Shown piece after piece: positions 23,231 through 58,032 of a stretch of 64,000 nucleotides of DNA. The notes beneath the pieces were generated by a model. The model ran no database searches, was not told the DNA's origin, and saw only the letters and a program-made list of their open reading frames with translations. How positions within the stretch are numbered: the first letter of the stretch is position 1; each line of letters opens with the position of its first letter. The position numbers and the translations under genes are program-made. The stretch lies in sequence record MH816966; one strand, given 5' to 3'. This DNA is from Escherichia phage FEC19.

Positions 23231-23494
23231 ATGGTACGCATCCTTGAACGTTACAAAAATGAAGCTACTGGCGCAATCGCGTTCAAACGTCTTTTGGTCA
23301 AAGAAATTGACGGTATGTTCCGCGTTGTAAAAGAGTTTGATTATGGCAACGGTGCTGGGGTGAATACCGTAATTATGCCTGGCATCAAGGCATATAAGAC
23401 TTTAAAAGGCGCTGAGAAGGCTTTGGCGGCTTGGAAACCTGAACGTTATCAAATGACCCGTGTTGAAGGGCTAATGCAAGAAGGTAAAATATGA
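23231..23494 (+). CDS. hypothetical protein (87 aa)
   Basis: ORF downstream of a TTGACT-17-CATAAT promoter. Confidence 0.45.
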   Translation: MVRILERYKNEATGAIAFKRLLVKEIDGMFRVVKEFDYGNGAGVNTVIMPGIKAYKTLKGAEKALAAWKPERYQMTRVEGLMQEGKI

Positions 23495-24048
23495 GCAATA
23501 TTAATTGGGAAGATGATTTGCCGCAGGTTGCTCCTGAGAGCATTCAGGAGCGTCTTGCGCGCTTAGTATCTGAATTGGCAGAGCGCCAAGAAGCTTTGAC
23601 AGAGCTTGAAGATGAAGCTGATATGCAAAAGCAGCGCATCAGTGAAATCAAAACTGTTCTGCTTCCTGGCGTTATGGATGAGCTTGGCGTGTCCGAAATC
23701 AAGCTTGAAGACAAGACCAAAATCAAGGTCGAGTCAAAAGTAAACGCTTCAATCAAGAAAGAAAATGAATTGAAGGTATTCGATTGGCTTGTCAACAATG
23801 GTTACGGCGGCTTGATCAAGTCCAGCGTCACGGCTGAGTTCGGTCGCGAAGAAATCGAGCAAGCGCAAGAGATTGTTGCCGCGCTGCGTGAAGATGGTGT
23901 TGAAGCCACGTTGAAACAAGGCGTTCATTCTGCTACACTGAAGTCGTTTGTAAAAGAACAGCTGGAAGCGGGCAATCCAGTTAGTGAAGATATTAGCGTT
24001 TTTGAATACAAAGAAGCTAAAATAACCTTGCCTAAAAGCAAAAAGTAA
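23491..24048 (+). CDS. hypothetical coiled-coil protein (185 aa)
   Basis: Acidic, heptad-like N-terminus; sits just upstream of the SSB-like gene. Confidence 0.45.
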   Translation: MSNINWEDDLPQVAPESIQERLARLVSELAERQEALTELEDEADMQKQRISEIKTVLLPGVMDELGVSEIKLEDKTKIKVESKVNASIKKENELKVFDWLVNNGYGGLIKSSVTAEFGREEIEQAQEIVAALREDGVEATLKQGVHSATLKSFVKEQLEAGNPVSEDISVFEYKEAKITLPKSKK

Positions 24049-24107: not shown

Positions 24108-24968
24108 ATGTCTAAGAAAGAAACCACCGAAGTTGCAGTGAAAAACACCCAGATGTCCGCTATGGCTGATTTTGTCGACATGACCGATTTTGGCGCTGGT
24201 TTTGAAGGTGCCGATGCCGATGCGTATGCCATTCCTTTTATCGTCGTACTGCAGAAGATGTCTCCTATGGTCGACGAAGATGATCCAAAACACGTTCCTG
24301 GCGCAAAGGCTGGCATGCTTTACAACACCGTTACTGGTGAGTTGTATGACGGCAAGAAAGGCGTGCAGATCATCCCTTGCGCATTCAAACGCACCTTCAT
24401 TCTTTGGGGCGGTCGCGAGTCCGACGATAAAGGCTTTAAAGGTGAATTCACCAAAGAGCACGTTGATGCAGAAGTCGCGGCAGGCCGCGCTGTTGAGATC
24501 AACGGTAAGGTATTCGTGCCGGACGAAAACGGCAAGGTGCACGAGAAGAAATCTCCTTACTACGCAGATACACGCAACCACTTCGTAATTCTGTTGAACG
24601 AAGAAACTGGTGAATTTGGTAGCGCAATGCTGTCTCTGACTTCTTCCATGATCAAGCCGTCTCGCATGCTGATGACCGCTCTGCAGCAGAAGAAAGTTCA
24701 GACTCCGCAGGGTCTGAAAACGCCGCCGACCTTTATGAACATCGTTCGCATGGGTACTGCATCCCAGTCCAAAGACGGCAACACCTGGTCTGTTCTGAAG
24801 TTTGAGCTGGAAGGTCTGGTGCAGGACAAAGGCCTGTACGAAGTCGCCAAGGCATTCCACAACGACGTAGTGGGCGGTAACGTTAACATCGACCGCAGCA
24901 AGCAGGAAGAAGCAAGCGGTGCCGCTGGTCCTGTCAATGAAACTCCTACCGACGCAGAAGAGTTTTAA
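24108..24968 (+). CDS. putative ssDNA-binding protein
   Basis: Acidic C-terminal tail ending in Phe (ETPTDAEEF), as in T7 gp2.5 and bacterial SSBs; AGGAAAA RBS. Confidence 0.45.
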   Translation: MSKKETTEVAVKNTQMSAMADFVDMTDFGAGFEGADADAYAIPFIVVLQKMSPMVDEDDPKHVPGAKAGMLYNTVTGELYDGKKGVQIIPCAFKRTFILWGGRESDDKGFKGEFTKEHVDAEVAAGRAVEINGKVFVPDENGKVHEKKSPYYADTRNHFVILLNEETGEFGSAMLSLTSSMIKPSRMLMTALQQKKVQTPQGLKTPPTFMNIVRMGTASQSKDGNTWSVLKFELEGLVQDKGLYEVAKAFHNDVVGGNVNIDRSKQEEASGAAGPVNETPTDAEEF

Positions 24969-24987
24969 TCGACAATCAAATCAACAA

Positions 24988-25013
24988 GGCTGCCGATTGG
25001 CGGCCTTTTATTT
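24988..25013 (+). terminator. rho-independent terminator
   Basis: GGCTGCC-GATT-GGCGGCC followed by TTTTATTT. Confidence 0.6.
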
Positions 25014-25025
25014 ATCTGGTGCATC

Positions 25026-25544
25026 ATGATAGAAAGAATTGTACCGCTCTTGAAGATTCTGGCCCTTGTTGGCGCGTTTGCCGCTGGATCATACGTTGAA
25101 GACCTGCAGCAAACCAACGCATCACTGGCCAAGGATAATCAATATCTGACATCGCTTAATGAGCGTAAGGACAAGATAAATGCACTCGAAGAGCAAATTG
25201 CATCTTTACAGGTTGAATCGGCATCGGCATATGAGAAAGGTCGCCAGGAAGCGCAACTGGTTGCTGATGACACTATTGCTCGTTACAAGTCTGGGAATAT
25301 CAAGTTGCGCGCGCAACTCAGCTGCTCCCGTGAGTTACTCAGGAGTATGCCCGACTCTGCGACCACTGGACGCCTCTCTATCCCAGAAGGAAACTGTGGA
25401 CTATCAGAAGAAGATGTCAGTTTTCTTGTTCAGTTCGCCGCAGAAACAAATCGATTAAAAGAGAAAGTTAATAGCTTGATTGATACTTATAATCAGGCTA
25501 AAATAAAAATCGATCAATTCAATGCATCAAAGGAAAATAAATGA
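25026..25544 (+). CDS. i-spanin (Rz-like)
   Basis: N-terminal TM helix IVPLLKILALVGAFAAGSYV followed by a long coiled coil; embedded lipoprotein ORF in the +1 frame. Confidence 0.6.
   Translation: MIERIVPLLKILALVGAFAAGSYVEDLQQTNASLAKDNQYLTSLNERKDKINALEEQIASLQVESASAYEKGRQEAQLVADDTIARYKSGNIKLRAQLSCSRELLRSMPDSATTGRLSIPEGNCGLSEEDVSFLVQFAAETNRLKEKVNSLIDTYNQAKIKIDQFNASKENK
25231..25458 (+). CDS. o-spanin (Rz1-like lipoprotein) embedded in the i-spanin gene
   Basis: MRKVARKRNWLLMTLLLVTSLGISSC signal with lipobox ISSC, then a Pro-rich mature part. Confidence 0.5.
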   Translation: MRKVARKRNWLLMTLLLVTSLGISSCARNSAAPVSYSGVCPTLRPLDASLSQKETVDYQKKMSVFLFSSPQKQID

Positions 25545-26164
25545 AACAGATTTATGCAAACATTCGCCAGTGGGCTTCTGACCGTAACATCATCCAAGGT
25601 TGCGACCTTAAGGACCAATACCCGAAGCTTATCAGCGAGTTCGGGGAGTTAACCGACCACGTTGATCAACTCCATGACCTTGTGTTCTTCGACCCTGAAA
25701 TTGGATATACAGAGCAAGCCATCTGTGACTTGCAGGCAGCAATTAAGGACGACATCGGCGATTGCCTTGTTGTGTTGACCATCCTGGCGGCGCAAAACGG
25801 TACTGAAATCGAAAACATTAATGGCGGCGGTTGTGCTGATAAAGGCGCTCACCCTCATTCATTCATCCTTCGCCTGGCAAAGACCCTTGGACGGCTTGGT
25901 GATGCTATTGCTAAGAATCAGACCATGGATATTGACGTCACCATCATGGCCGCAGTCGATTACCTTTCCGGCGTAGCTCATGATTATGGCCTTCGCTTAT
26001 CCGACTGTGCGCAAGCGGCCTACGAAGACATCAAGGACCGCAAAGGTGTCATGTACAACGGAACGTTCATCAAATCTACTGATCCAGCTTATGAGCACTC
26101 CTGCAAAATGGTAAAGAAGCTGGAACTTGAAGACCGTGTGATCAGAGAAGTTACAGGACAATAA
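25541..26164 (+). CDS. MazG-like nucleotide pyrophosphohydrolase (tentative)
   Basis: EFGELTDHV and DDIGDCLVVLTILAAQNG resemble the EExxE and EExxD motifs of all-alpha NTP pyrophosphohydrolases. Confidence 0.45.
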   Translation: MKQIYANIRQWASDRNIIQGCDLKDQYPKLISEFGELTDHVDQLHDLVFFDPEIGYTEQAICDLQAAIKDDIGDCLVVLTILAAQNGTEIENINGGGCADKGAHPHSFILRLAKTLGRLGDAIAKNQTMDIDVTIMAAVDYLSGVAHDYGLRLSDCAQAAYEDIKDRKGVMYNGTFIKSTDPAYEHSCKMVKKLELEDRVIREVTGQ

Positions 26165-26166
26165 TT

Positions 26167-27129
26167 ATGACAGCATTAAAACCAATGAAGGGTTGCCAAC
26201 GTAAGCAGATTATCGAGCGCGGCGAGGACGTGCCGCTGCCTTGCGGACTGTCATTCAAGGTCGATGGCATACGTGCAATGGCGTATGACAACTTGCCAAT
26301 GGGCACTTCCGGCATGCCGTTGCGCAACGTTCAAATCAAAAAAGAGTTCCTCTTTTTGGGTGAACTAATTCACGGACTTGATGGAGAGCTAATCGACGGC
26401 AATCCAAATGATAAGAACGTCATGCAACAGGCCTATACTGCATGCATGAATACTGATGCAATCACTAACTTTACATGGTGGGTGTTTGATGACTTCAGCG
26501 ACCCTGATCTGCCTTTTGAAAAGCGTTATGCAAACTATCGAGCTAGAGTTGCTGAGGTCAATCAGCATCTCATCAACCATGGTCGACGCCCATTCCTTCG
26601 CGCTCTCGAATATCGAAACATCGAAAATATGGAACAGTACGCGGCGATGCAAATCGAAGCAGACCAGCTTGGATATGAAGGCTTGTATGGCAAGTCTTGG
26701 ACGGGCAAATACAAGCATGGCCGCGCGACGCCGAAGTCACGTGATGTGTGGAAGGACAAGCCGTGGACGGATGAAGAAGGATTGATCATAGACTTCGTTG
26801 AGATGATGGAGAACAACAACGAAGCATTCATTGACGAATTGGGTCGCACCAAGCGTTCAAAAGAGGCTGAAGGTTTAGTTGCAAAAGGATACCTTGGCTC
26901 ATTCGTAGTCGTCAATCCGAAATATGTGGATGAGAAAGGTGAAATGATTCCTTTCCGCGTATCCGCTGGTTCAATGCCTATGGCAGAGAGAAAAATGCTT
27001 TGGGAGAATCGCGAGAACTATCGCGATAAATATCTAACGTATAAATTCTTTAACTTCGGCATTGTTGATGTGCCGCGCTCTGCTTTGTATAAATGCTTCC
27101 GTGATATTACCGATATGGAGTATTTTTAA
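26167..27129 (+). CDS. ATP-dependent DNA ligase
   Basis: Motif I KxDG (FKVDGIRAM) and a downstream EGLYGK segment. Confidence 0.8.
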   Translation: MTALKPMKGCQRKQIIERGEDVPLPCGLSFKVDGIRAMAYDNLPMGTSGMPLRNVQIKKEFLFLGELIHGLDGELIDGNPNDKNVMQQAYTACMNTDAITNFTWWVFDDFSDPDLPFEKRYANYRARVAEVNQHLINHGRRPFLRALEYRNIENMEQYAAMQIEADQLGYEGLYGKSWTGKYKHGRATPKSRDVWKDKPWTDEEGLIIDFVEMMENNNEAFIDELGRTKRSKEAEGLVAKGYLGSFVVVNPKYVDEKGEMIPFRVSAGSMPMAERKMLWENRENYRDKYLTYKFFNFGIVDVPRSALYKCFRDITDMEYF

Positions 27130-27203
27130 GACACTAGATAAATAATTGGTGCGGATAATCTATCGCGTTGTTTTATAGAATTTAATATACAGTGTATACA
27201 TAA

Positions 27204-27229
27204 AGCCGGAAATCTCCGGCTTTTCTTTT
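27204..27229 (+). terminator. rho-independent terminator
   Basis: AGCCGGA-AATC-TCCGGCT followed by TTTCTTTTATTT. Confidence 0.7.
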
Positions 27230-27305: not shown

Positions 27306-27848
27306 ATGAAATCGAAAACTTTAAAGATTGTTTTGATCACCATCATGGCTATGCTGACAGTCTTGTTCTTCACCAAAAGTGCAGCGGCTGAAAGTATGTT
27401 TACGCCGCCAAATAGTAATGCCAAAGTGTTAACGAGATATTTTAACAACGGCCAATCGTTCGAATTTTGCTGGAACAAATATGATGTGATAAAGGAAAGG
27501 TTTGATAAGGAAAAGATGTGCGTAATGAATGATCGCGGTCGCCAAGTCGTTTCGTTTGTGTTCGGAATGTCAATTGCAAAAGTTGATGCCGCTGAAATCG
27601 TTGTCAGGTATAATACATTGGACAGCGGCCTTGTCGACAAGACATACCCTGTTGCAGTAGACAGCAGGACAGGCGGCGCACTCATACTCACTCCAGAAGA
27701 TAAATCAGATGTCGTTAACATGCTCATCAACAGCAAAGACGTAATCGTGTTTTATCATGTTGAAGGCGTATCAGACTACCAAATGGCCTACTATCCACTG
27801 CCCTTAAGAGATGCTTCAGGTAATGTTAAGACACAGGATGTGCGTTGA
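27306..27848 (+). CDS. secreted protein with signal peptide
   Basis: MKSKTLKIVLITIMAMLTVLFFTKSAAAE; own TTTACT-16-TATACT promoter and AAGGTGA RBS. Confidence 0.5.
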   Translation: MKSKTLKIVLITIMAMLTVLFFTKSAAAESMFTPPNSNAKVLTRYFNNGQSFEFCWNKYDVIKERFDKEKMCVMNDRGRQVVSFVFGMSIAKVDAAEIVVRYNTLDSGLVDKTYPVAVDSRTGGALILTPEDKSDVVNMLINSKDVIVFYHVEGVSDYQMAYYPLPLRDASGNVKTQDVR

Positions 27849-27862
27849 CATGGGTGGTAGTT

Positions 27863-28075
27863 ATGCAGAAAGATTTGGAAGAAAACAAAAGGCTGAAAAA
27901 GGCTTTGACGTCTCAAATCTTGTCCCTGTTGGTAAAGCTTATTGGGGAGTCAATTAGCAACAAGGTGGCACGGGCCGCGATTGTTGGCGTGATTGGCATG
28001 GCGGGGTATTACTTCGACTTGCCAGACATTGATACAAGTTCCGCGCCGCCAGTCCAGGTTGAAGCCGTGAAATAA
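27863..28075 (+). CDS. small membrane protein (70 aa)
   Basis: ATG at 27863 after GGTGG; one predicted TM helix (AAIVGVIGMAGYYF). Confidence 0.4.
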   Translation: MQKDLEENKRLKKALTSQILSLLVKLIGESISNKVARAAIVGVIGMAGYYFDLPDIDTSSAPPVQVEAVK

Positions 28076-28100: not shown

Positions 28101-28745
28101 TTACATAACTGCTAGTGCATCCTTGTAACGCTTCCGTCGCAAATCCCCATGGTTAGCCGTATTCGGCGCGGCCCCGTTAATCCGCTTCACGGTCGAATCA
28201 AATGCACCCGCATCGGCAAGTGGAATGCAACCGCTGTTCTTGAAGAACCACGCTGCGCTGTCAGCGATGTATTTCGGCTCAGTCAAAATGTCAGGGTTAT
28301 TCAAGGCGTCATACCCTGATTGCTTTGAATACTCTGCATAGTTATCCTTTCCAGTCAGCTGAATGGCACCACGGCCACGGTACTTCCAACCGTCGCCAGA
28401 TGCTACCGAACCATTTCCCATTCGGTTTGCATATGTATTATTGGCGATTTCCATTGGTTTACGGGCAATCGACAACGCCAAGGAGTTTGGTGCGCCACCG
28501 AAACGACCGCTGACGCTGTAACGGCTAGGCCACGTGTTGGCAAGACCCTGTGCAGAGTAGTTGAGATTTTCCACAAATGTTCTCAAGCTGCCTGTCTCTA
28601 CTCCTACGTTTGCAAGGAATGCCGCGATGGCATTCTTGCTTTTGATTCCGTAGTGCTCACAAGCCTGCTTGAAAGGGTCCACCCATTTCTCTGCGACATC
28701 CATGCTGCATCCGGTCCCTTTAGATATTACGTTTGCATTAATCAT
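28101..28745 (-). CDS. endolysin, glycoside hydrolase family 19-like
   Basis: AAFLANVGVETG and RGRGAIQLTGKDNY segments typical of GH19 phage lysins; AAGGTGA RBS. Confidence 0.85.
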   Translation of the reverse strand: MINANVISKGTGCSMDVAEKWVDPFKQACEHYGIKSKNAIAAFLANVGVETGSLRTFVENLNYSAQGLANTWPSRYSVSGRFGGAPNSLALSIARKPMEIANNTYANRMGNGSVASGDGWKYRGRGAIQLTGKDNYAEYSKQSGYDALNNPDILTEPKYIADSAAWFFKNSGCIPLADAGAFDSTVKRINGAAPNTANHGDLRRKRYKDALAVM

Positions 28746-45030: not shown

Positions 45031-45417
45031 TCAAGTAGACACTGGAAAGCTTTGTTTTATTTCCACGGCAAGGCAAGTCGTCCAACCATCTTGGTCAAAC
45101 CATGTCGTTTCATCTTCCATTTTATACGTTTTCCCACCAAACACAAAATAGTCGCCGGAAGCGTCGCGGTCAAGGTCAACAATGTCTTTGTCTACCCAGA
45201 TTTTGACATAGTTCTTTTGAAGCTCCAATCCAAGCTCGACGTATTGATTTCGAAGAACAGCCTGCACCGAAGCAAGTAGCGTGATTGGTTCTTCATAAGT
45301 GGTAACGTAGTTGCGCATTTTATCAAGAGTGCGCCCCTTGTACATGTAATATTGAATCGGTTGGCGACCGATGACCTTTGTCGCAACTCGATATAAGTTT
45401 ACGCCAGGAATCCTCAC
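45031..45417 (-). CDS. head-tail adaptor (tentative)
   Basis: ORF in the connector region. Confidence 0.45.
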   Translation of the reverse strand: MRIPGVNLYRVATKVIGRQPIQYYMYKGRTLDKMRNYVTTYEEPITLLASVQAVLRNQYVELGLELQKNYVKIWVDKDIVDLDRDASGDYFVFGGKTYKMEDETTWFDQDGWTTCLAVEIKQSFPVST

Positions 45418-45878
45418 CAGAATACCCCACCAATTTTACGAAATCCTTCGCGCTCTGGAAGACCGCCAAACGACAAGCCGCCGACAGCCAGTGCTTGCAG
45501 AAGCGCCCAAAGCGCCATGCCATAAGGAGTACTTGAAAGCCAGTATTCCCAACCATCACTTGCAGGCGGCGCTACCTTATTCACGGTGATGTCACCGATT
45601 GTTGCACCAGTCACGAAGCCGCCTTGTTCAACTCCGTCACCAGAAGACACAGACACCTGTTGGTCTGTGGCTATGCATAAAAGATGAGCCGTCATATATT
45701 CCAATGCCAGCTCCAATTTACTGCCATTTAAAACACGACAAGGACTGTCTTGTGATTCAATAAATTCACATGCCATGTCATAGAAAACTTGAAGCGTTGT
45801 GTCAGGGAATTTTACCTGATCAGCAAACTGTGGAAATTTTATTCTGAACTTTTCGTAATCTAATGACATGGCATTCAC
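45414..45878 (-). CDS. head completion protein (tentative)
   Basis: ORF in the connector region. Confidence 0.45.
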   Translation of the reverse strand: MNAMSLDYEKFRIKFPQFADQVKFPDTTLQVFYDMACEFIESQDSPCRVLNGSKLELALEYMTAHLLCIATDQQVSVSSGDGVEQGGFVTGATIGDITVNKVAPPASDGWEYWLSSTPYGMALWALLQALAVGGLSFGGLPEREGFRKIGGVFW

Positions 45879-45883
45879 CTTAT

Positions 45884-46348
45884 TTAAACGCGGAACAAAT
45901 CATCTTCTTGTTCGCCGCTCAATTTAACCTTGATGCGCTTGTCAGCCGTCTCACGCGTCATAGGTGCGAACGGGTCATCTGACATGCCGCGCACTTCTTT
46001 AGCGACAGCTTTATGATTGCCAACGATGTCGTGGTTAACCACTTTAACCAGACCTTTTTCAAGGTGCTGCTTGAATACGTGATGATCTTTTAAATGTTCA
46101 AAATCAGCATCGCTTACAACGGTGACGATTCCTTCAGGAGTCCACAAAGGTGCACCATCAGCGCCTTTTGCCATTTCACCAAAGCCGGAAGTTGCCGAAG
46201 TAAGACCAGCACCGCCCTTGATCAGAATCTGTTTGCGAATATTTGGAAGAGCGCCTGAACCAGCTTTTGCATTCGGGTTTTCTTTCACTTCCGTATAGAA
46301 AGTGTAGTTGACTGACATAGACATAGTTGAAACGATGTATTTTGGCAT
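45884..46348 (-). CDS. hypothetical structural protein (154 aa)
   Basis: First gene after the capsid gene and its intergenic hairpin. Confidence 0.45.
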   Translation of the reverse strand: MPKYIVSTMSMSVNYTFYTEVKENPNAKAGSGALPNIRKQILIKGGAGLTSATSGFGEMAKGADGAPLWTPEGIVTVVSDADFEHLKDHHVFKQHLEKGLVKVVNHDIVGNHKAVAKEVRGMSDDPFAPMTRETADKRIKVKLSGEQEDDLFRV

Positions 46349-56834: not shown

Positions 56835-57050
56835 ATGAAACTCATCGACCGTGCCATCAAAGCCATAGATAACCATTCCACAGCTATTGCATTTGTAATG
56901 GGATTCTGTTTTACTGCTGCGTTTGGCGACGTTCACACATTCAAGTCTGTCATCTTGTGCTGGTCTATCTGGTCCCTCATTTCTCTGGTTTTGATTCTTC
57001 CGATGACGTGGCTTATCCTTACTTGTCTGGAATCTCAAGGTGAAGACTGA
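56835..57050 (+). CDS. small two-TM membrane protein (holin-like)
   Basis: GGAGG RBS; two hydrophobic helices and a charged C-terminus (LESQGED). Confidence 0.4.
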   Translation: MKLIDRAIKAIDNHSTAIAFVMGFCFTAAFGDVHTFKSVILCWSIWSLISLVLILPMTWLILTCLESQGED

Positions 57051-57690: not shown

Positions 57691-58032
57691 ATGAACAACA
57701 CTTTATCACAACTGCTAATCTGGACTATCGCCGCTATCATCGGCACCGTCATTATGATGTCAAGCGCAAAGGCGCAAACTGATATTTGCGGCAGACTTAT
57801 TTCTGAGAATGGCGAGATTTATTATGGCAACTCAAAAGGCGATTATATATCACCTGAAGTTTGCGCTCAGAAGAAGGCGGAAATGCAAAAGCAGTATCAT
57901 GAAGATCAATCCATATCTCAGGCCGCGCTGATTGAATTAAGTATATCAGCCATCATCTTTCTGATCGTTTTTATGCTCATTATTAAACCAAATAATGACA
58001 GCAACCGTCATATTCCTCTCAAAAGAAATTAA
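57691..58032 (+). CDS. membrane protein with N- and C-terminal hydrophobic helices
   Basis: ATG at 57691 after AAAGAGG; the longer ORF-track N-terminus is rejected. Confidence 0.45.
   Translation: MNNTLSQLLIWTIAAIIGTVIMMSSAKAQTDICGRLISENGEIYYGNSKGDYISPEVCAQKKAEMQKQYHEDQSISQAALIELSISAIIFLIVFMLIIKPNNDSNRHIPLKRN

What the first reader, a model, noticed from the sequence alone, without database searches (positions are those of the whole stretch)
25026..25544. Embedded spanin pair located away from the endolysin
An Rz-like i-spanin with an embedded Rz1-like lipoprotein ORF (lipobox ISSC, Pro-rich) sits in the middle of the replication module, about 3 kb from the GH19 endolysin on the opposite strand. 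No holin is adjacent to the endolysin; holin-like genes are at 27863 and 56835. The lysis functions are therefore scattered rather than in a cassette.
Basis: partly seen in the sequence, partly recalled or inferred. Interest (0 to 1): 0.4.

Follow-up and report, generated by a model that had tools for sequence, protein, structure and literature searches.

The report
Known embedded spanin pair in wifcevirus
The window is a Wifcevirus coliphage, and the flagged gene really is an Rz/Rz1-type pair of nested genes that break the host outer membrane at lysis, but this pair is already catalogued and annotated in near-identical phages, so it is an ordinary feature in a slightly unusual place.

Summary
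Observation confirmed. Window 25026-25544 (+) encodes a 172-aa inner-membrane spanin (N-terminal membrane anchor, PHROG "Rz-like spanin" E=1.4e-26). Nested in its +1 frame is a 75-aa lipoprotein gene (25231-25458; signal MRKVARKRNWLLMTLLLVTSLGISS|C). Both frames are intact in 12/12 wifceviruses. The same nested lipoprotein, with a shared motif, is present in 40/40 related loci, including Yersinia phage PY54 and Burkholderia phage Mica, where the pair directly follows holin and endolysin.

It is not new. The window is 98.7% identical to phage vB_EcoM_WFC. The ECML-117 copy (98% identical) is listed as an embedded spanin pair in Kongari et al. 2018. Mansfield and Bas98-101 carry i-/o-spanin annotations.

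The location claim holds: the pair lies between a Pam3_Gp34-like gene and MazG/DNA ligase, 2.6 kb from the convergent GH19 endolysin. The holin claims do not hold. The ORF at 27863-28075 lies 25 nt from the endolysin stop and is only marginally hydrophobic. Neither candidate matches a holin family.

One added lead: in the sister genera Pbunavirus, Kylevirus and Myosmarvirus the same slot holds a Bbp1-like membrane protein. Elsewhere that protein is the last gene of endolysin cassettes, so the slot may be an old lysis slot.

The parts
24986..25007 (+). Intrinsic terminator hairpin (9-bp stem, GATT loop) followed by a T-rich tail running to about 25017. It lies only 18 nt upstream of the i-spanin ATG.
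   Evidence: Terminator scan. MFE -15.9 kcal/mol, and the stem is kept in 12/12 wifceviruses: one loop change in WFC, and one G-to-A change in AV128 that turns a G-U pair into A-U. Annotated as a terminator in WFC and Mansfield.
25018..25021 (+). Shine-Dalgarno-like GGTG, 4 nt before the i-spanin ATG
   Evidence: Read directly from the sequence. An RBS is annotated immediately upstream of the i-spanin start in Mansfield, and GGT in the same string is capitalised in the Kongari 2018 supplement.
25026..25544 (+). i-spanin gene (172 aa), an Rz-like inner-membrane spanin subunit. Its stop overlaps the MazG start (ATGA at 25541-25544).
   Evidence: PHROG 1327 'Rz-like spanin' E=1.4e-26. Homologues are PY54 p62 (E=6e-14) and Mica i-spanin (E=2e-5). 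Three of 4 aligned family members hit Pfam PF03245, best E=6.1e-17. Periplasmic Cys at 100 and 124; Cys100 is invariant in the alignment.
25038..25094 (+). N-terminal transmembrane anchor of the i-spanin (about aa 5-23, IVPLLKILALVGAFAAGSY)
   Evidence: Kyte-Doolittle mean 2.33 over 15 aa starting at residue 5, and 1.75 over 19 aa.
25231..25458 (+). o-spanin gene (75 aa precursor, 50-aa mature outer-membrane lipoprotein), fully embedded in the +1 frame of the i-spanin gene. An alternative upstream start at ATG 25180 (92 aa) is the one used in the GenBank annotations.
   Evidence: It is 42-47% identical to the nested o-spanins of PY54, Mica and LIET2, with the motif CP..P.D..L.Q.ET.D[YF]Q..MS.FLF. 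Kongari 2018 lists the ECML-117 o-spanin as 75 aa at the corresponding coordinates.
25297..25308 (+). Lipobox I-S-S-C. Cys26 is the predicted lipidated residue. The +2 residue is Ala rather than Asp, so outer-membrane sorting is expected.
   Evidence: Pattern match. Conserved as ISSC or MSSC in 12/12 wifceviruses. No dedicated SPase II predictor was available here.
25541..26164 (+). MazG-like pyrophosphatase gene, with its start overlapping the i-spanin stop
   Evidence: PHROG 1992 E=3e-62; start/stop overlap seen in the sequence.
26167..27129 (+). ATP-dependent DNA ligase gene, last gene of the spanin-MazG-ligase unit
   Evidence: PHROG 114 E=2.3e-42. A terminator-like hairpin follows at 27202-27223.
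27863..28075 (+). Small conserved gene (70 aa; 76 aa from TTG 27845) convergent with the endolysin and 25 nt from its stop. PHROG 5165; candidate lysis-related protein, not a demonstrated holin.
   Evidence: PHROG 5165 E=2.3e-8. Homologues sit next to the endolysin in Kyle, E217 and MTx and are found in about 290 Pbunavirus records. Marginal hydrophobicity. The Pantoea phage PA1 homologue, 'PA1-LRP', is reported to enhance endolysin killing (PMC11538084).
28101..28745 (-). GH19-type endolysin (214 aa) with no N-terminal signal or SAR segment
   Evidence: Pfam PF00182 E=2.3e-7; PHROG 181 endolysin E=1.9e-70; best 19-aa hydrophobicity 1.12.

Best explanation
This is the two-component (Rz/Rz1-type, embedded) spanin of a Wifcevirus coliphage.

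Inferred mechanism, taken from established knowledge of lambda Rz/Rz1:
- The 172-aa i-spanin is anchored in the inner membrane by its N-terminal helix and extends a largely helical domain into the periplasm.
- The 75-aa precursor nested in the +1 frame is processed by signal peptidase II at ISS|C, lipidated and sent to the outer membrane. Its 50-aa mature form binds the C-terminus of the i-spanin.
- The complex spans the periplasm and stays inactive inside the peptidoglycan mesh. Once the GH19 endolysin (28101-28745) has degraded the wall, the complex fuses the inner and outer membranes and completes lysis.
- Because spanins are harmless until the wall is gone, the pair can sit in an operon with MazG and DNA ligase rather than in a lysis cassette.

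Transcription (inferred from the anatomy): the pair lies directly behind a conserved intrinsic terminator, leaving only 18 nt between the hairpin and the start codon, and its stop overlaps the MazG start. It is probably transcribed by read-through from the upstream replication genes.

Shown here: gene anatomy, conservation of both frames, family membership, synteny.
Inferred: topology, lipidation, membrane fusion, timing.
For: - Identity of the window: 98.7% to vB_EcoM_WFC over 3.2 kb, with 27 wifcevirus records matching.
- i-spanin: PHROG 1327 'Rz-like spanin' E=1.4e-26 and an N-terminal TMD. Its homologues PY54, LIET2 and Mica hit Pfam PF03245, best E=6.1e-17. In PY54 and Mica the gene sits in a holin-endolysin-spanin cassette.
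- o-spanin: basic n-region, 13-aa hydrophobic core, lipobox ISSC, Ala at +2, one further Cys. It is 42-47% identical to the nested lipoproteins of PY54, Mica and LIET2. It is present in the +1 frame in 40/40 family loci and 12/12 wifceviruses.
- Null expectation for the nested ORF: 0.74%.
- Published: ECML-117 is listed as an embedded i-/o-spanin pair, with a 75-aa o-spanin, in Kongari et al. 2018 (PMC6139136).
- GenBank: i-spanin and o-spanin are annotated in Mansfield and Bas98-101.
- Operon anatomy: conserved terminator 24986-25007, ATGA overlap with MazG, next terminator at 27202-27223.
Against: - The window protein itself does not reach Pfam PF03245 even at E<=1. The link to Rz is transitive, through PHROG 1327 and homologues that are 27-32% identical.
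- No dedicated lipoprotein or topology predictor could be run.
- No experiment on any wifcevirus spanin was found in the literature searches.
- Substitution patterns within Wifcevirus carry little power. There are 14 variable sites in 228 overlapped nt against 26 in 282 non-overlapped nt, which is only a trend.
- Expression timing is unknown. The terminator directly upstream could mean low expression.
Confidence: 0.9

Rival explanations
1. The nested +1 ORF is a chance open frame and only the outer 172-aa membrane protein is real. That protein would then be a coiled-coil membrane protein serving replication or superinfection exclusion, which would fit its neighbours.
For: - The gene sits among replication genes and overlaps the MazG start.
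- No Pfam, PHROG or NCBIfam model matches the nested product.
- WFC, ECML-117 and many other records annotate only the outer gene.
Against: - The nested lipoprotein is conserved at 42-47% identity across phages whose outer proteins are only 27-30% identical to the window's.
- It is found in 40/40 family loci.
- The chance expectation is 0.74%.
- Homologous pairs sit right after endolysins.
Confidence: 0.03
2. The pair is a functional spanin, and its position is an old lysis-gene slot of the PB1-like supergroup rather than an oddity. In sister genera the same slot holds a Bbp1-like membrane protein (PHROG 1544) that is itself a lysis protein. Wifceviruses replaced it with an Rz/Rz1 pair acquired from an enterobacterial phage of the PY54/LIET2 type.
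For: - Same gene order in Kyle, E217 and MTx: helicase, two hypothetical genes, a 201-aa membrane protein, MazG, ligase, the PHROG 5165 gene, then endolysin and tail fibre on the reverse strand.
- The 201-aa protein is PHROG 1544. It has no homologue in the window.
- Its homologue Bbp1 is the last gene of the BPP-1 cassette bbp4-bbp3-bbp2(endolysin)-bbp1.
- In the metagenomic and prophage contexts looked at (loci L021-L025, from three family proteins) the Bbp1-like gene starts 4 nt inside the gene just upstream. That upstream gene is a GH108/PG_binding_3 protein in L022 and L023; the 156- and 169-aa upstream genes of L021, L024 and L025 have no Pfam hit on record.
- BPP-1 is listed as 'spanin-less', and CPT found no holin or spanin in MTx.
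- The nearest spanin relatives are from Yersinia, Pantoea and Serratia phages.
Against: - The function of the Bbp1-like family is unknown. The weak GTA_holin_3TM match (E=0.02) was seen in only 1 of 21 members.
- Pbunaviruses already have a predicted u-spanin elsewhere (E217 gp09, AWAC lipobox), so the swap is not one-for-one.
- There is no compositional trace of recent transfer at the spanin: GC 0.44-0.49, like its flanks.
Confidence: 0.4

Closest known systems
Escherichia phage ECML-117 embedded spanin pair (Kongari et al. 2018, BMC Bioinformatics 19:326; catalogued as singleton i- and o-spanin families)
   Same: Same genus. The i-spanin is 98.3% identical. The o-spanin has the same 75-aa length, the same lipobox ISSC and the same nesting offset of 205 nt in the +1 frame. 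The flanking genes are the same.
   Different: A few substitutions only, for example R3K in the signal peptide and S28R in the mature part. Nothing structural differs.
Phage lambda Rz/Rz1 (prototype embedded two-component spanin; Pfam PF03245 for Rz)
   Same: Type II inner-membrane protein with a helical periplasmic domain, plus an outer-membrane lipoprotein gene wholly nested in the +1 frame. Periplasmic cysteines are present in both subunits. The G-N-x-R-L...C motif region is shared with family members that do hit PF03245.
   Different: - The window i-spanin does not itself reach PF03245.
- The mature o-spanin is 50 aa with 8% Pro, against 40 aa and about 25% Pro in Rz1 (the Rz1 figures are from my own knowledge).
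- Lambda's pair is the last gene of the S-R-Rz/Rz1 cassette, whereas this pair is detached and sits in a replication operon.
Yersinia phage PY54 p62 and Burkholderia phage Mica i-/o-spanin
   Same: Same spanin family: i-spanins 27-32% identical, o-spanins 42% identical, the same nested +1 arrangement and the same conserved o-spanin motif.
   Different: Those pairs directly follow holin and endolysin in a canonical cassette. In this family, 9 of 13 upstream-neighbour types outside Wifcevirus and LIET2 are recognisable lysozymes or peptidases.
Phage T4 pseT.3/pseT.2 spanins
   Same: A precedent for spanin genes in a virulent myophage that are not linked to the holin and endolysin genes. Kongari 2018 states this explicitly.
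   Different: The T4 genes are separated rather than nested, and they are unrelated in sequence family.

Membership tests
Two-component spanin, embedded architecture (Rz/Rz1 type) | i-spanin with a single N-terminal transmembrane domain (N-in, C-out) | tested here: met
   Hydrophobic segment at about aa 5-23, Kyte-Doolittle 2.33 (15 aa) and 1.75 (19 aa). No other hydrophobic segment. Orientation was not predicted.
Two-component spanin, embedded architecture (Rz/Rz1 type) | Periplasmic domain of the i-spanin is helical / coiled coil | not tested
   No secondary-structure or coiled-coil predictor was run here. The Kongari 2018 supplementary table reports one coiled-coil segment for the near-identical ECML-117 i-spanin.
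Two-component spanin, embedded architecture (Rz/Rz1 type) | o-spanin with a signal peptidase II signal and lipobox Cys, and no Asp at +2 | tested here: met
   Tested by pattern only: MRKVARKRN (5 basic residues), WLLMTLLLVTSLG, then ISS|C-A. Conserved in 12/12 wifceviruses. The ECML-117 signal, differing only by R3K, is catalogued as an o-spanin in Kongari 2018. LipoP and SignalP are not available here.
Two-component spanin, embedded architecture (Rz/Rz1 type) | o-spanin gene entirely inside the i-spanin gene in the +1 frame | tested here: met
   25231-25458 lies within 25026-25544; the offset is 205 nt, which is the +1 frame.
Two-component spanin, embedded architecture (Rz/Rz1 type) | At least one periplasmic cysteine for intermolecular disulfide bonds | tested here: met
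   i-spanin C100 and C124; mature o-spanin C15 in addition to the lipidated Cys. C100 is invariant in the alignment of four homologues. The o-spanin Cys-Pro motif is present in all four sequences, although the alignment shifts it in Mica.
Two-component spanin, embedded architecture (Rz/Rz1 type) | Outer-membrane disruption: complements lambda Rz/Rz1 mutants or is required for lysis in Mg2+ | not testable with these tools
   No experiment on a wifcevirus spanin was found in the literature searches.
Pfam PF03245 Phage_lysis (Rz) | Score above the family's gathering threshold | tested here: not met
   There is no PF03245 match for the window protein at E<=1. Three of 4 aligned homologues do match, best E=6.1e-17. 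The window protein is a divergent relative, not a Pfam-level member.
PHROG 1327 (Rz-like spanin) | Significant full-length profile match | tested here: met
   E=1.4e-26, residues 6-160 against profile positions 9-156 of 158.
   - 27863-28075: best 19-aa hydrophobicity is 1.34, below the usual 1.6. It matches PHROG 5165 'unknown function' and has no Pfam or NCBIfam hit. A homologue, PA1-LRP, is reported as lysis-enhancing.
- 56835-57050: two hydrophobic segments, no family match, restricted to Wifcevirus.

The most novel reading that the evidence does not exclude
The slot between the Pam3_Gp34-like gene and MazG may be an ancestral lysis-gene slot of the PB1-like myophage supergroup.
- In Pbunavirus, Kylevirus and Myosmarvirus it holds a Bbp1-like membrane protein (PHROG 1544: glycine-zipper N-terminus, coiled coil, two C-terminal TMDs).
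- In BPP-1-like phages and prophages that protein is the terminal gene of the cassette, directly after the endolysin (identified in BPP-1 and in L022/L023). That is the place spanins normally occupy, and these are phages catalogued as 'spanin-less'.
- Wifceviruses would have replaced it in situ with an Rz/Rz1 pair.

If so, the Bbp1-like family (640+ members, no Pfam domain) is an uncharacterised lysis protein. It would be either a new holin class or a non-canonical outer-membrane disruptor.
Probability: 0.35. Interest if true: 0.55.

Novelty: already known. Interest (0 to 1): 0.15.

Why it matters
As it stands it matters little. It confirms a catalogued spanin pair. It also shows that many wifcevirus GenBank records leave the i-spanin as 'hypothetical', and that those records and the RefSeq re-annotations omit the nested o-spanin. 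That is useful only for annotation hygiene.

Two modest points go beyond that:
- Wifceviruses, which are used in coliphage cocktails against O157 (the listed hosts of ECML-117, vB_Eco4M-7n and Ro157lw include O157:H7/STEC O157), still have no identified holin.
- The syntenic replacement of a Bbp1-like membrane protein by a spanin pair gives a concrete, testable candidate for a missing lysis function in phages listed as 'spanin-less' or 'holin-less' (BPP-1 and MTx).

Tried and rejected
- Direct Pfam and NCBIfam matches for the i- and o-spanin: none. The Rz link had to be made through PHROG 1327 and through homologues.
- Substitution analysis of the two frames within Wifcevirus: the genomes are too similar. 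There are 40 variable sites in 510 nt, and the overlapped part is only slightly less variable (6.1% against 9.2%), so this was not used as evidence.
- Idea that the PHROG 5165 gene next to the endolysin is the PB1-type u-spanin: rejected, because it has no Cys and no lipobox.
- The 'u-spanin' label on Pbunavirus E215/JJ01 ORF85 (equivalent to E217 gp54 and homologous to window 23491-24048): rejected as a misannotation. The protein is soluble and highly charged.
- The real PB1-type u-spanin (E217 gp09, AWAC lipobox) and the multi-TM gp11 lie near the terminase. Neither has a homologue in the window.
- Idea that the Bbp1-like family is the RcGTA-type 3TM holin (PF11351): not supported. Only 1 of 21 members matched, at E=0.02; the other hits are generic glycine-zipper matches.
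- Search for a sigma-70 promoter between the terminator and the spanin: none. Only 18 nt are available, and promoter-like hits in the region are at shuffle level (10 found against 9.5 expected).
- Compositional sign of recent transfer at the spanin: none.
- Literature on wifcevirus lysis genes or transcription timing: nothing found.

Full report
**What the window is.** A 3.2-kb stretch around the finding is 98.7% identical to Escherichia phage vB_EcoM_WFC and 92-99% identical to 26 other records, all Wifcevirus or close relatives. The window is therefore a Wifcevirus genome read on the reverse strand of the WFC record. These are myophages that the Mansfield genome announcement describes as PB1-like.

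**The observation.**
- ORF 25026-25544 (+) encodes 172 aa.
- The +1 frame is open from 25180 to 25458. An internal ATG at 25231 gives a 75-aa product, MRKVARKRNWLLMTLLLVTSLGISSC-ARNS....
- The outer protein has one hydrophobic segment, at its N-terminus (about aa 5-23), and two Cys residues (100 and 124).
- The nested product has a basic n-region, a 13-residue hydrophobic core, lipobox I-S-S-C with Ala at +2, and a 50-aa mature part with one further Cys and 4 Pro.

**Is the nested ORF more than chance?**
- When the i-spanin's codons are resampled synonymously with phage codon usage, 148 of 20,000 versions (0.74%) contain a nested ORF with a lipoprotein-type signal.
- Among 69 ORFs of at least 120 aa in the window, only this one has such an ORF.
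- A six-frame scan of the whole window for SPase II-like signals gave three hits. The o-spanin was the only credible one.

**Conservation.**
- In 12 wifceviruses both frames are intact, with lengths 171-172 and 75 aa, and the lipobox is ISSC or MSSC. Divergence is too low for a useful two-frame substitution test.
- The stronger evidence comes from distant relatives. The i-spanins of Yersinia phage PY54, Pantoea phage LIET2 and Burkholderia phage Mica are 27-30% identical to the window's in the alignment (tblastn E down to 6e-14).
- Each of these carries a +1-frame lipoprotein that is 42-47% identical to the window's. The shared pattern is a lipobox, then a Cys-Pro, then P.D..L.Q.ET.D[YF]Q..MS.FLF.
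- A scan of IMG/VR with the family alignment gave 45 loci. All 40 with solid homology carry this nested lipoprotein.

**What it is.**
- The outer protein matches PHROG 1327 'Rz-like spanin' (E=1.4e-26).
- It does not itself reach Pfam PF03245 (Rz), but three of the four aligned family members do, best E=6.1e-17.
- In PY54 the homologue follows holin and a glycoside hydrolase. In Mica it follows a class II holin and a SAR endolysin and is annotated i-spanin/o-spanin.
- Thirteen representative genes found immediately upstream of family members outside Wifcevirus and LIET2 were scanned. Eight are Phage_lysozyme and one is a Peptidase_M15/VanY type.
- This is therefore an embedded two-component spanin. 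The mechanism I assign is carried over from lambda Rz/Rz1 and was not tested here: a periplasm-spanning complex of inner-membrane and outer-membrane subunits that fuses the two membranes once the endolysin has removed the peptidoglycan.

**It is already known.**
- Kongari et al. 2018 (PMC6139136) list ECML-117 among the embedded i-spanin and o-spanin singletons. Their supplement gives the i-spanin sequence, an o-spanin of 75 aa and coordinates 45375-45894 / 45461-45689, which correspond exactly to 25026-25544 / 25231-25458 here.
- GenBank records for Mansfield and for Bas98, Bas99, Bas100 and Bas101 annotate both genes. RefSeq re-annotations of WFC, WFH and ECML-117 call the outer gene 'Rz-like spanin'.
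- Many other records leave it 'hypothetical' and omit the nested gene.

**Location.**
- The pair sits after DNA polymerase III alpha/epsilon, two helicases and three uncharacterised genes.
- It sits before MazG and an ATP-dependent DNA ligase.
- The GH19 endolysin lies on the other strand at 28101-28745, at the end of the tail-fibre operon.

**Local anatomy.**
- A strong intrinsic terminator (24986-25007, -15.9 kcal/mol) ends 18 nt before the spanin ATG. Its stem is kept in all 12 genomes.
- The spanin stop overlaps the MazG start (ATGA).
- The next terminator follows the ligase, at 27202-27223.
- No promoter fits in the 18-nt gap, and sigma-70-like hits in the region are at shuffle level.
- I therefore infer that spanin-MazG-ligase is expressed by read-through of the terminator. 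Timing cannot be determined from sequence, and I found no transcriptome for these phages.
- Detached spanins have precedent. Kongari et al. note that the T4 spanins are not near t and e, and the LIET2 family member is also detached.

**Holin claims.**
- ORF 27863-28075 is in fact adjacent to the endolysin: convergent, 25 nt between the two stop codons, with a bidirectional terminator between them.
- It belongs to PHROG 5165 'unknown function'. It is conserved next to the endolysin in Kyle, E217 and MTx, and matches about 290 Pbunavirus records.
- Its hydrophobic stretch is marginal: best 19-aa mean 1.34.
- A paper on Pantoea phage PA1 reports that the neighbour of a homologous endolysin, 'PA1-LRP' (8.5 kDa, most similar to Kyle gp058), slows growth and enhances killing when co-expressed with the endolysin (PMC11538084). 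The published primers encode MVRRR... and RTILIS.... These fit Kyle's VRRRKRE... N-terminus and LRTLLIG segment, so the family link is my inference.
- ORF 56835-57050 has two hydrophobic segments, no family match, and is confined to Wifcevirus.
- No wifcevirus annotation examined names a holin.

**The slot.**
- Gene order is conserved in Kylevirus (Kyle), Pbunavirus (E217) and Myosmarvirus (MTx). The order is helicase, two conserved genes, slot, MazG, ligase, the PHROG 5165 gene, then endolysin and tail fibre on the reverse strand.
- In those three phages the slot holds a 201-aa protein of PHROG 1544 with a glycine-zipper N-terminus, a coiled coil and two C-terminal TMDs. It has no Cys and no nested lipoprotein.
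- The window has no homologue of this protein.
- Its homologue in Bordetella phage BPP-1 is Bbp1, the last gene of bbp4-bbp3-bbp2(endolysin)-bbp1.
- In the metagenomic and prophage contexts looked at (loci L021-L025) the family member starts 4 nt inside the gene just upstream. That gene is a GH108/PG_binding_3 protein in L022 and L023; the upstream genes of L021, L024 and L025 have no Pfam hit on record.
- The family has at least 640 members and no Pfam domain.
- BPP-1 is listed as 'spanin-less' by Kongari et al.. The MTx announcement states that no holin or spanin could be identified.
- This makes the slot look like a lysis slot, and the wifcevirus spanin look like an in-situ replacement.

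**Caveats on the slot idea.**
- Pbunaviruses have a predicted u-spanin elsewhere: E217 gp09, with the AWAC lipobox described by Kongari et al., next to a multi-TM gp11. Neither has a homologue in the window.
- The weak GTA_holin_3TM match of E217 gp52 was not reproduced in 20 other family members.
- I rate this reading at about 0.35-0.4.

**Verdict.** The location is as described, and it is conserved throughout the genus. The holin remarks are unsupported. The feature is already catalogued, so interest is low. The only lead with some novelty is the Bbp1-like protein that occupies the same slot in sister genera.

Noticed in passing
L004 4563-5168 (E217 gp52); L003 4020-4625 (Kyle); L020 6001-6606 (MTx); L019 3001-3633 (BPP-1 Bbp1): A large uncharacterised family (PHROG 1544; at least 640 proteins, no Pfam domain). 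Members have a glycine-zipper N-terminus, a coiled coil and two C-terminal TMDs. The family occupies the wifcevirus spanin slot in sister genera. In BPP-1-like phages and prophages it is the last gene of the cassette, after the endolysin in BPP-1 and in L022/L023.
   Followed up: partly
window 27863-28075 (+): A small basic protein of PHROG 5165 is conserved convergent to the endolysin across Wifcevirus, Kylevirus, Myosmarvirus and about 290 Pbunavirus records. It is annotated 'hypothetical' everywhere. The Pantoea phage PA1 homologue (PA1-LRP) is reported as lysis-enhancing. Its hydrophobicity is marginal, so it is not an obvious holin.
   Followed up: partly
window 27306-27848 (+): A 180-aa protein with a clear N-terminal signal peptide or anchor (MKSKTLKIVLITIMAMLTVLFFTKSAAA|ES) and no family match. 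It lies in a low-GC patch (0.35-0.375, against about 0.47 in the flanks) between the ligase and the PHROG 5165 gene. A gene of similar size sits at the same place in Kyle and MTx but not in E217; homology between them was not tested.
   Followed up: no
window 23491-24048 (+); L004 2901-3521: The Pbunavirus counterpart of this gene (E217 gp54, matching the position and length of JJ01 ORF85) is labelled 'u-spanin' in phage JJ01, by PHASTER transfer from an E215 annotation. The protein is soluble and highly charged, with no lipobox or TMD, so the label looks like a propagated misannotation.
   Followed up: yes
L026 3643-4026 (-) and 4895-5332 (-) (E217 gp09, gp11): The PB1-type u-spanin (AWAC lipobox plus C-terminal TMD) and a multi-TM membrane protein, whose JJ01 counterpart appears to be the ORF42 annotated 'holin', lie near the terminase. 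That is about 30 kb from the endolysin, so Pbunavirus lysis genes are scattered too. Neither has a homologue in the window.
   Followed up: yes
window 24108-24968 (+): The gene immediately upstream of the spanin matches Pfam PF23977 Pam3_Gp34 (E=4.2e-86, measured on the ECML-117 copy) and PHROG 2402. It is annotated 'hypothetical' in all wifcevirus records seen.
   Followed up: no
window 57691-58032 (+) and 56835-57050 (+): Two small membrane proteins lie in the cluster divergent from the terminase. One is a 113-aa protein with an N-terminal signal-like segment, two Cys and a strong C-terminal TMD; this is a u-spanin-like topology without a lipobox. The other is a 71-aa protein with two hydrophobic segments. 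Neither has a family match.
   Followed up: partly
window 25541-25544; L008 1542-1543: In WFC, vB_Eco4M-7, F13 and SP13 the tblastn match to the window's i-spanin stops at residue 170 of 172. In the one of these read directly (WFC) the i-spanin is 171 aa, ends in ...SKEK, and abuts MazG rather than overlapping its start. In the window and in most relatives the stop overlaps the MazG start (ATGA).
   Followed up: no
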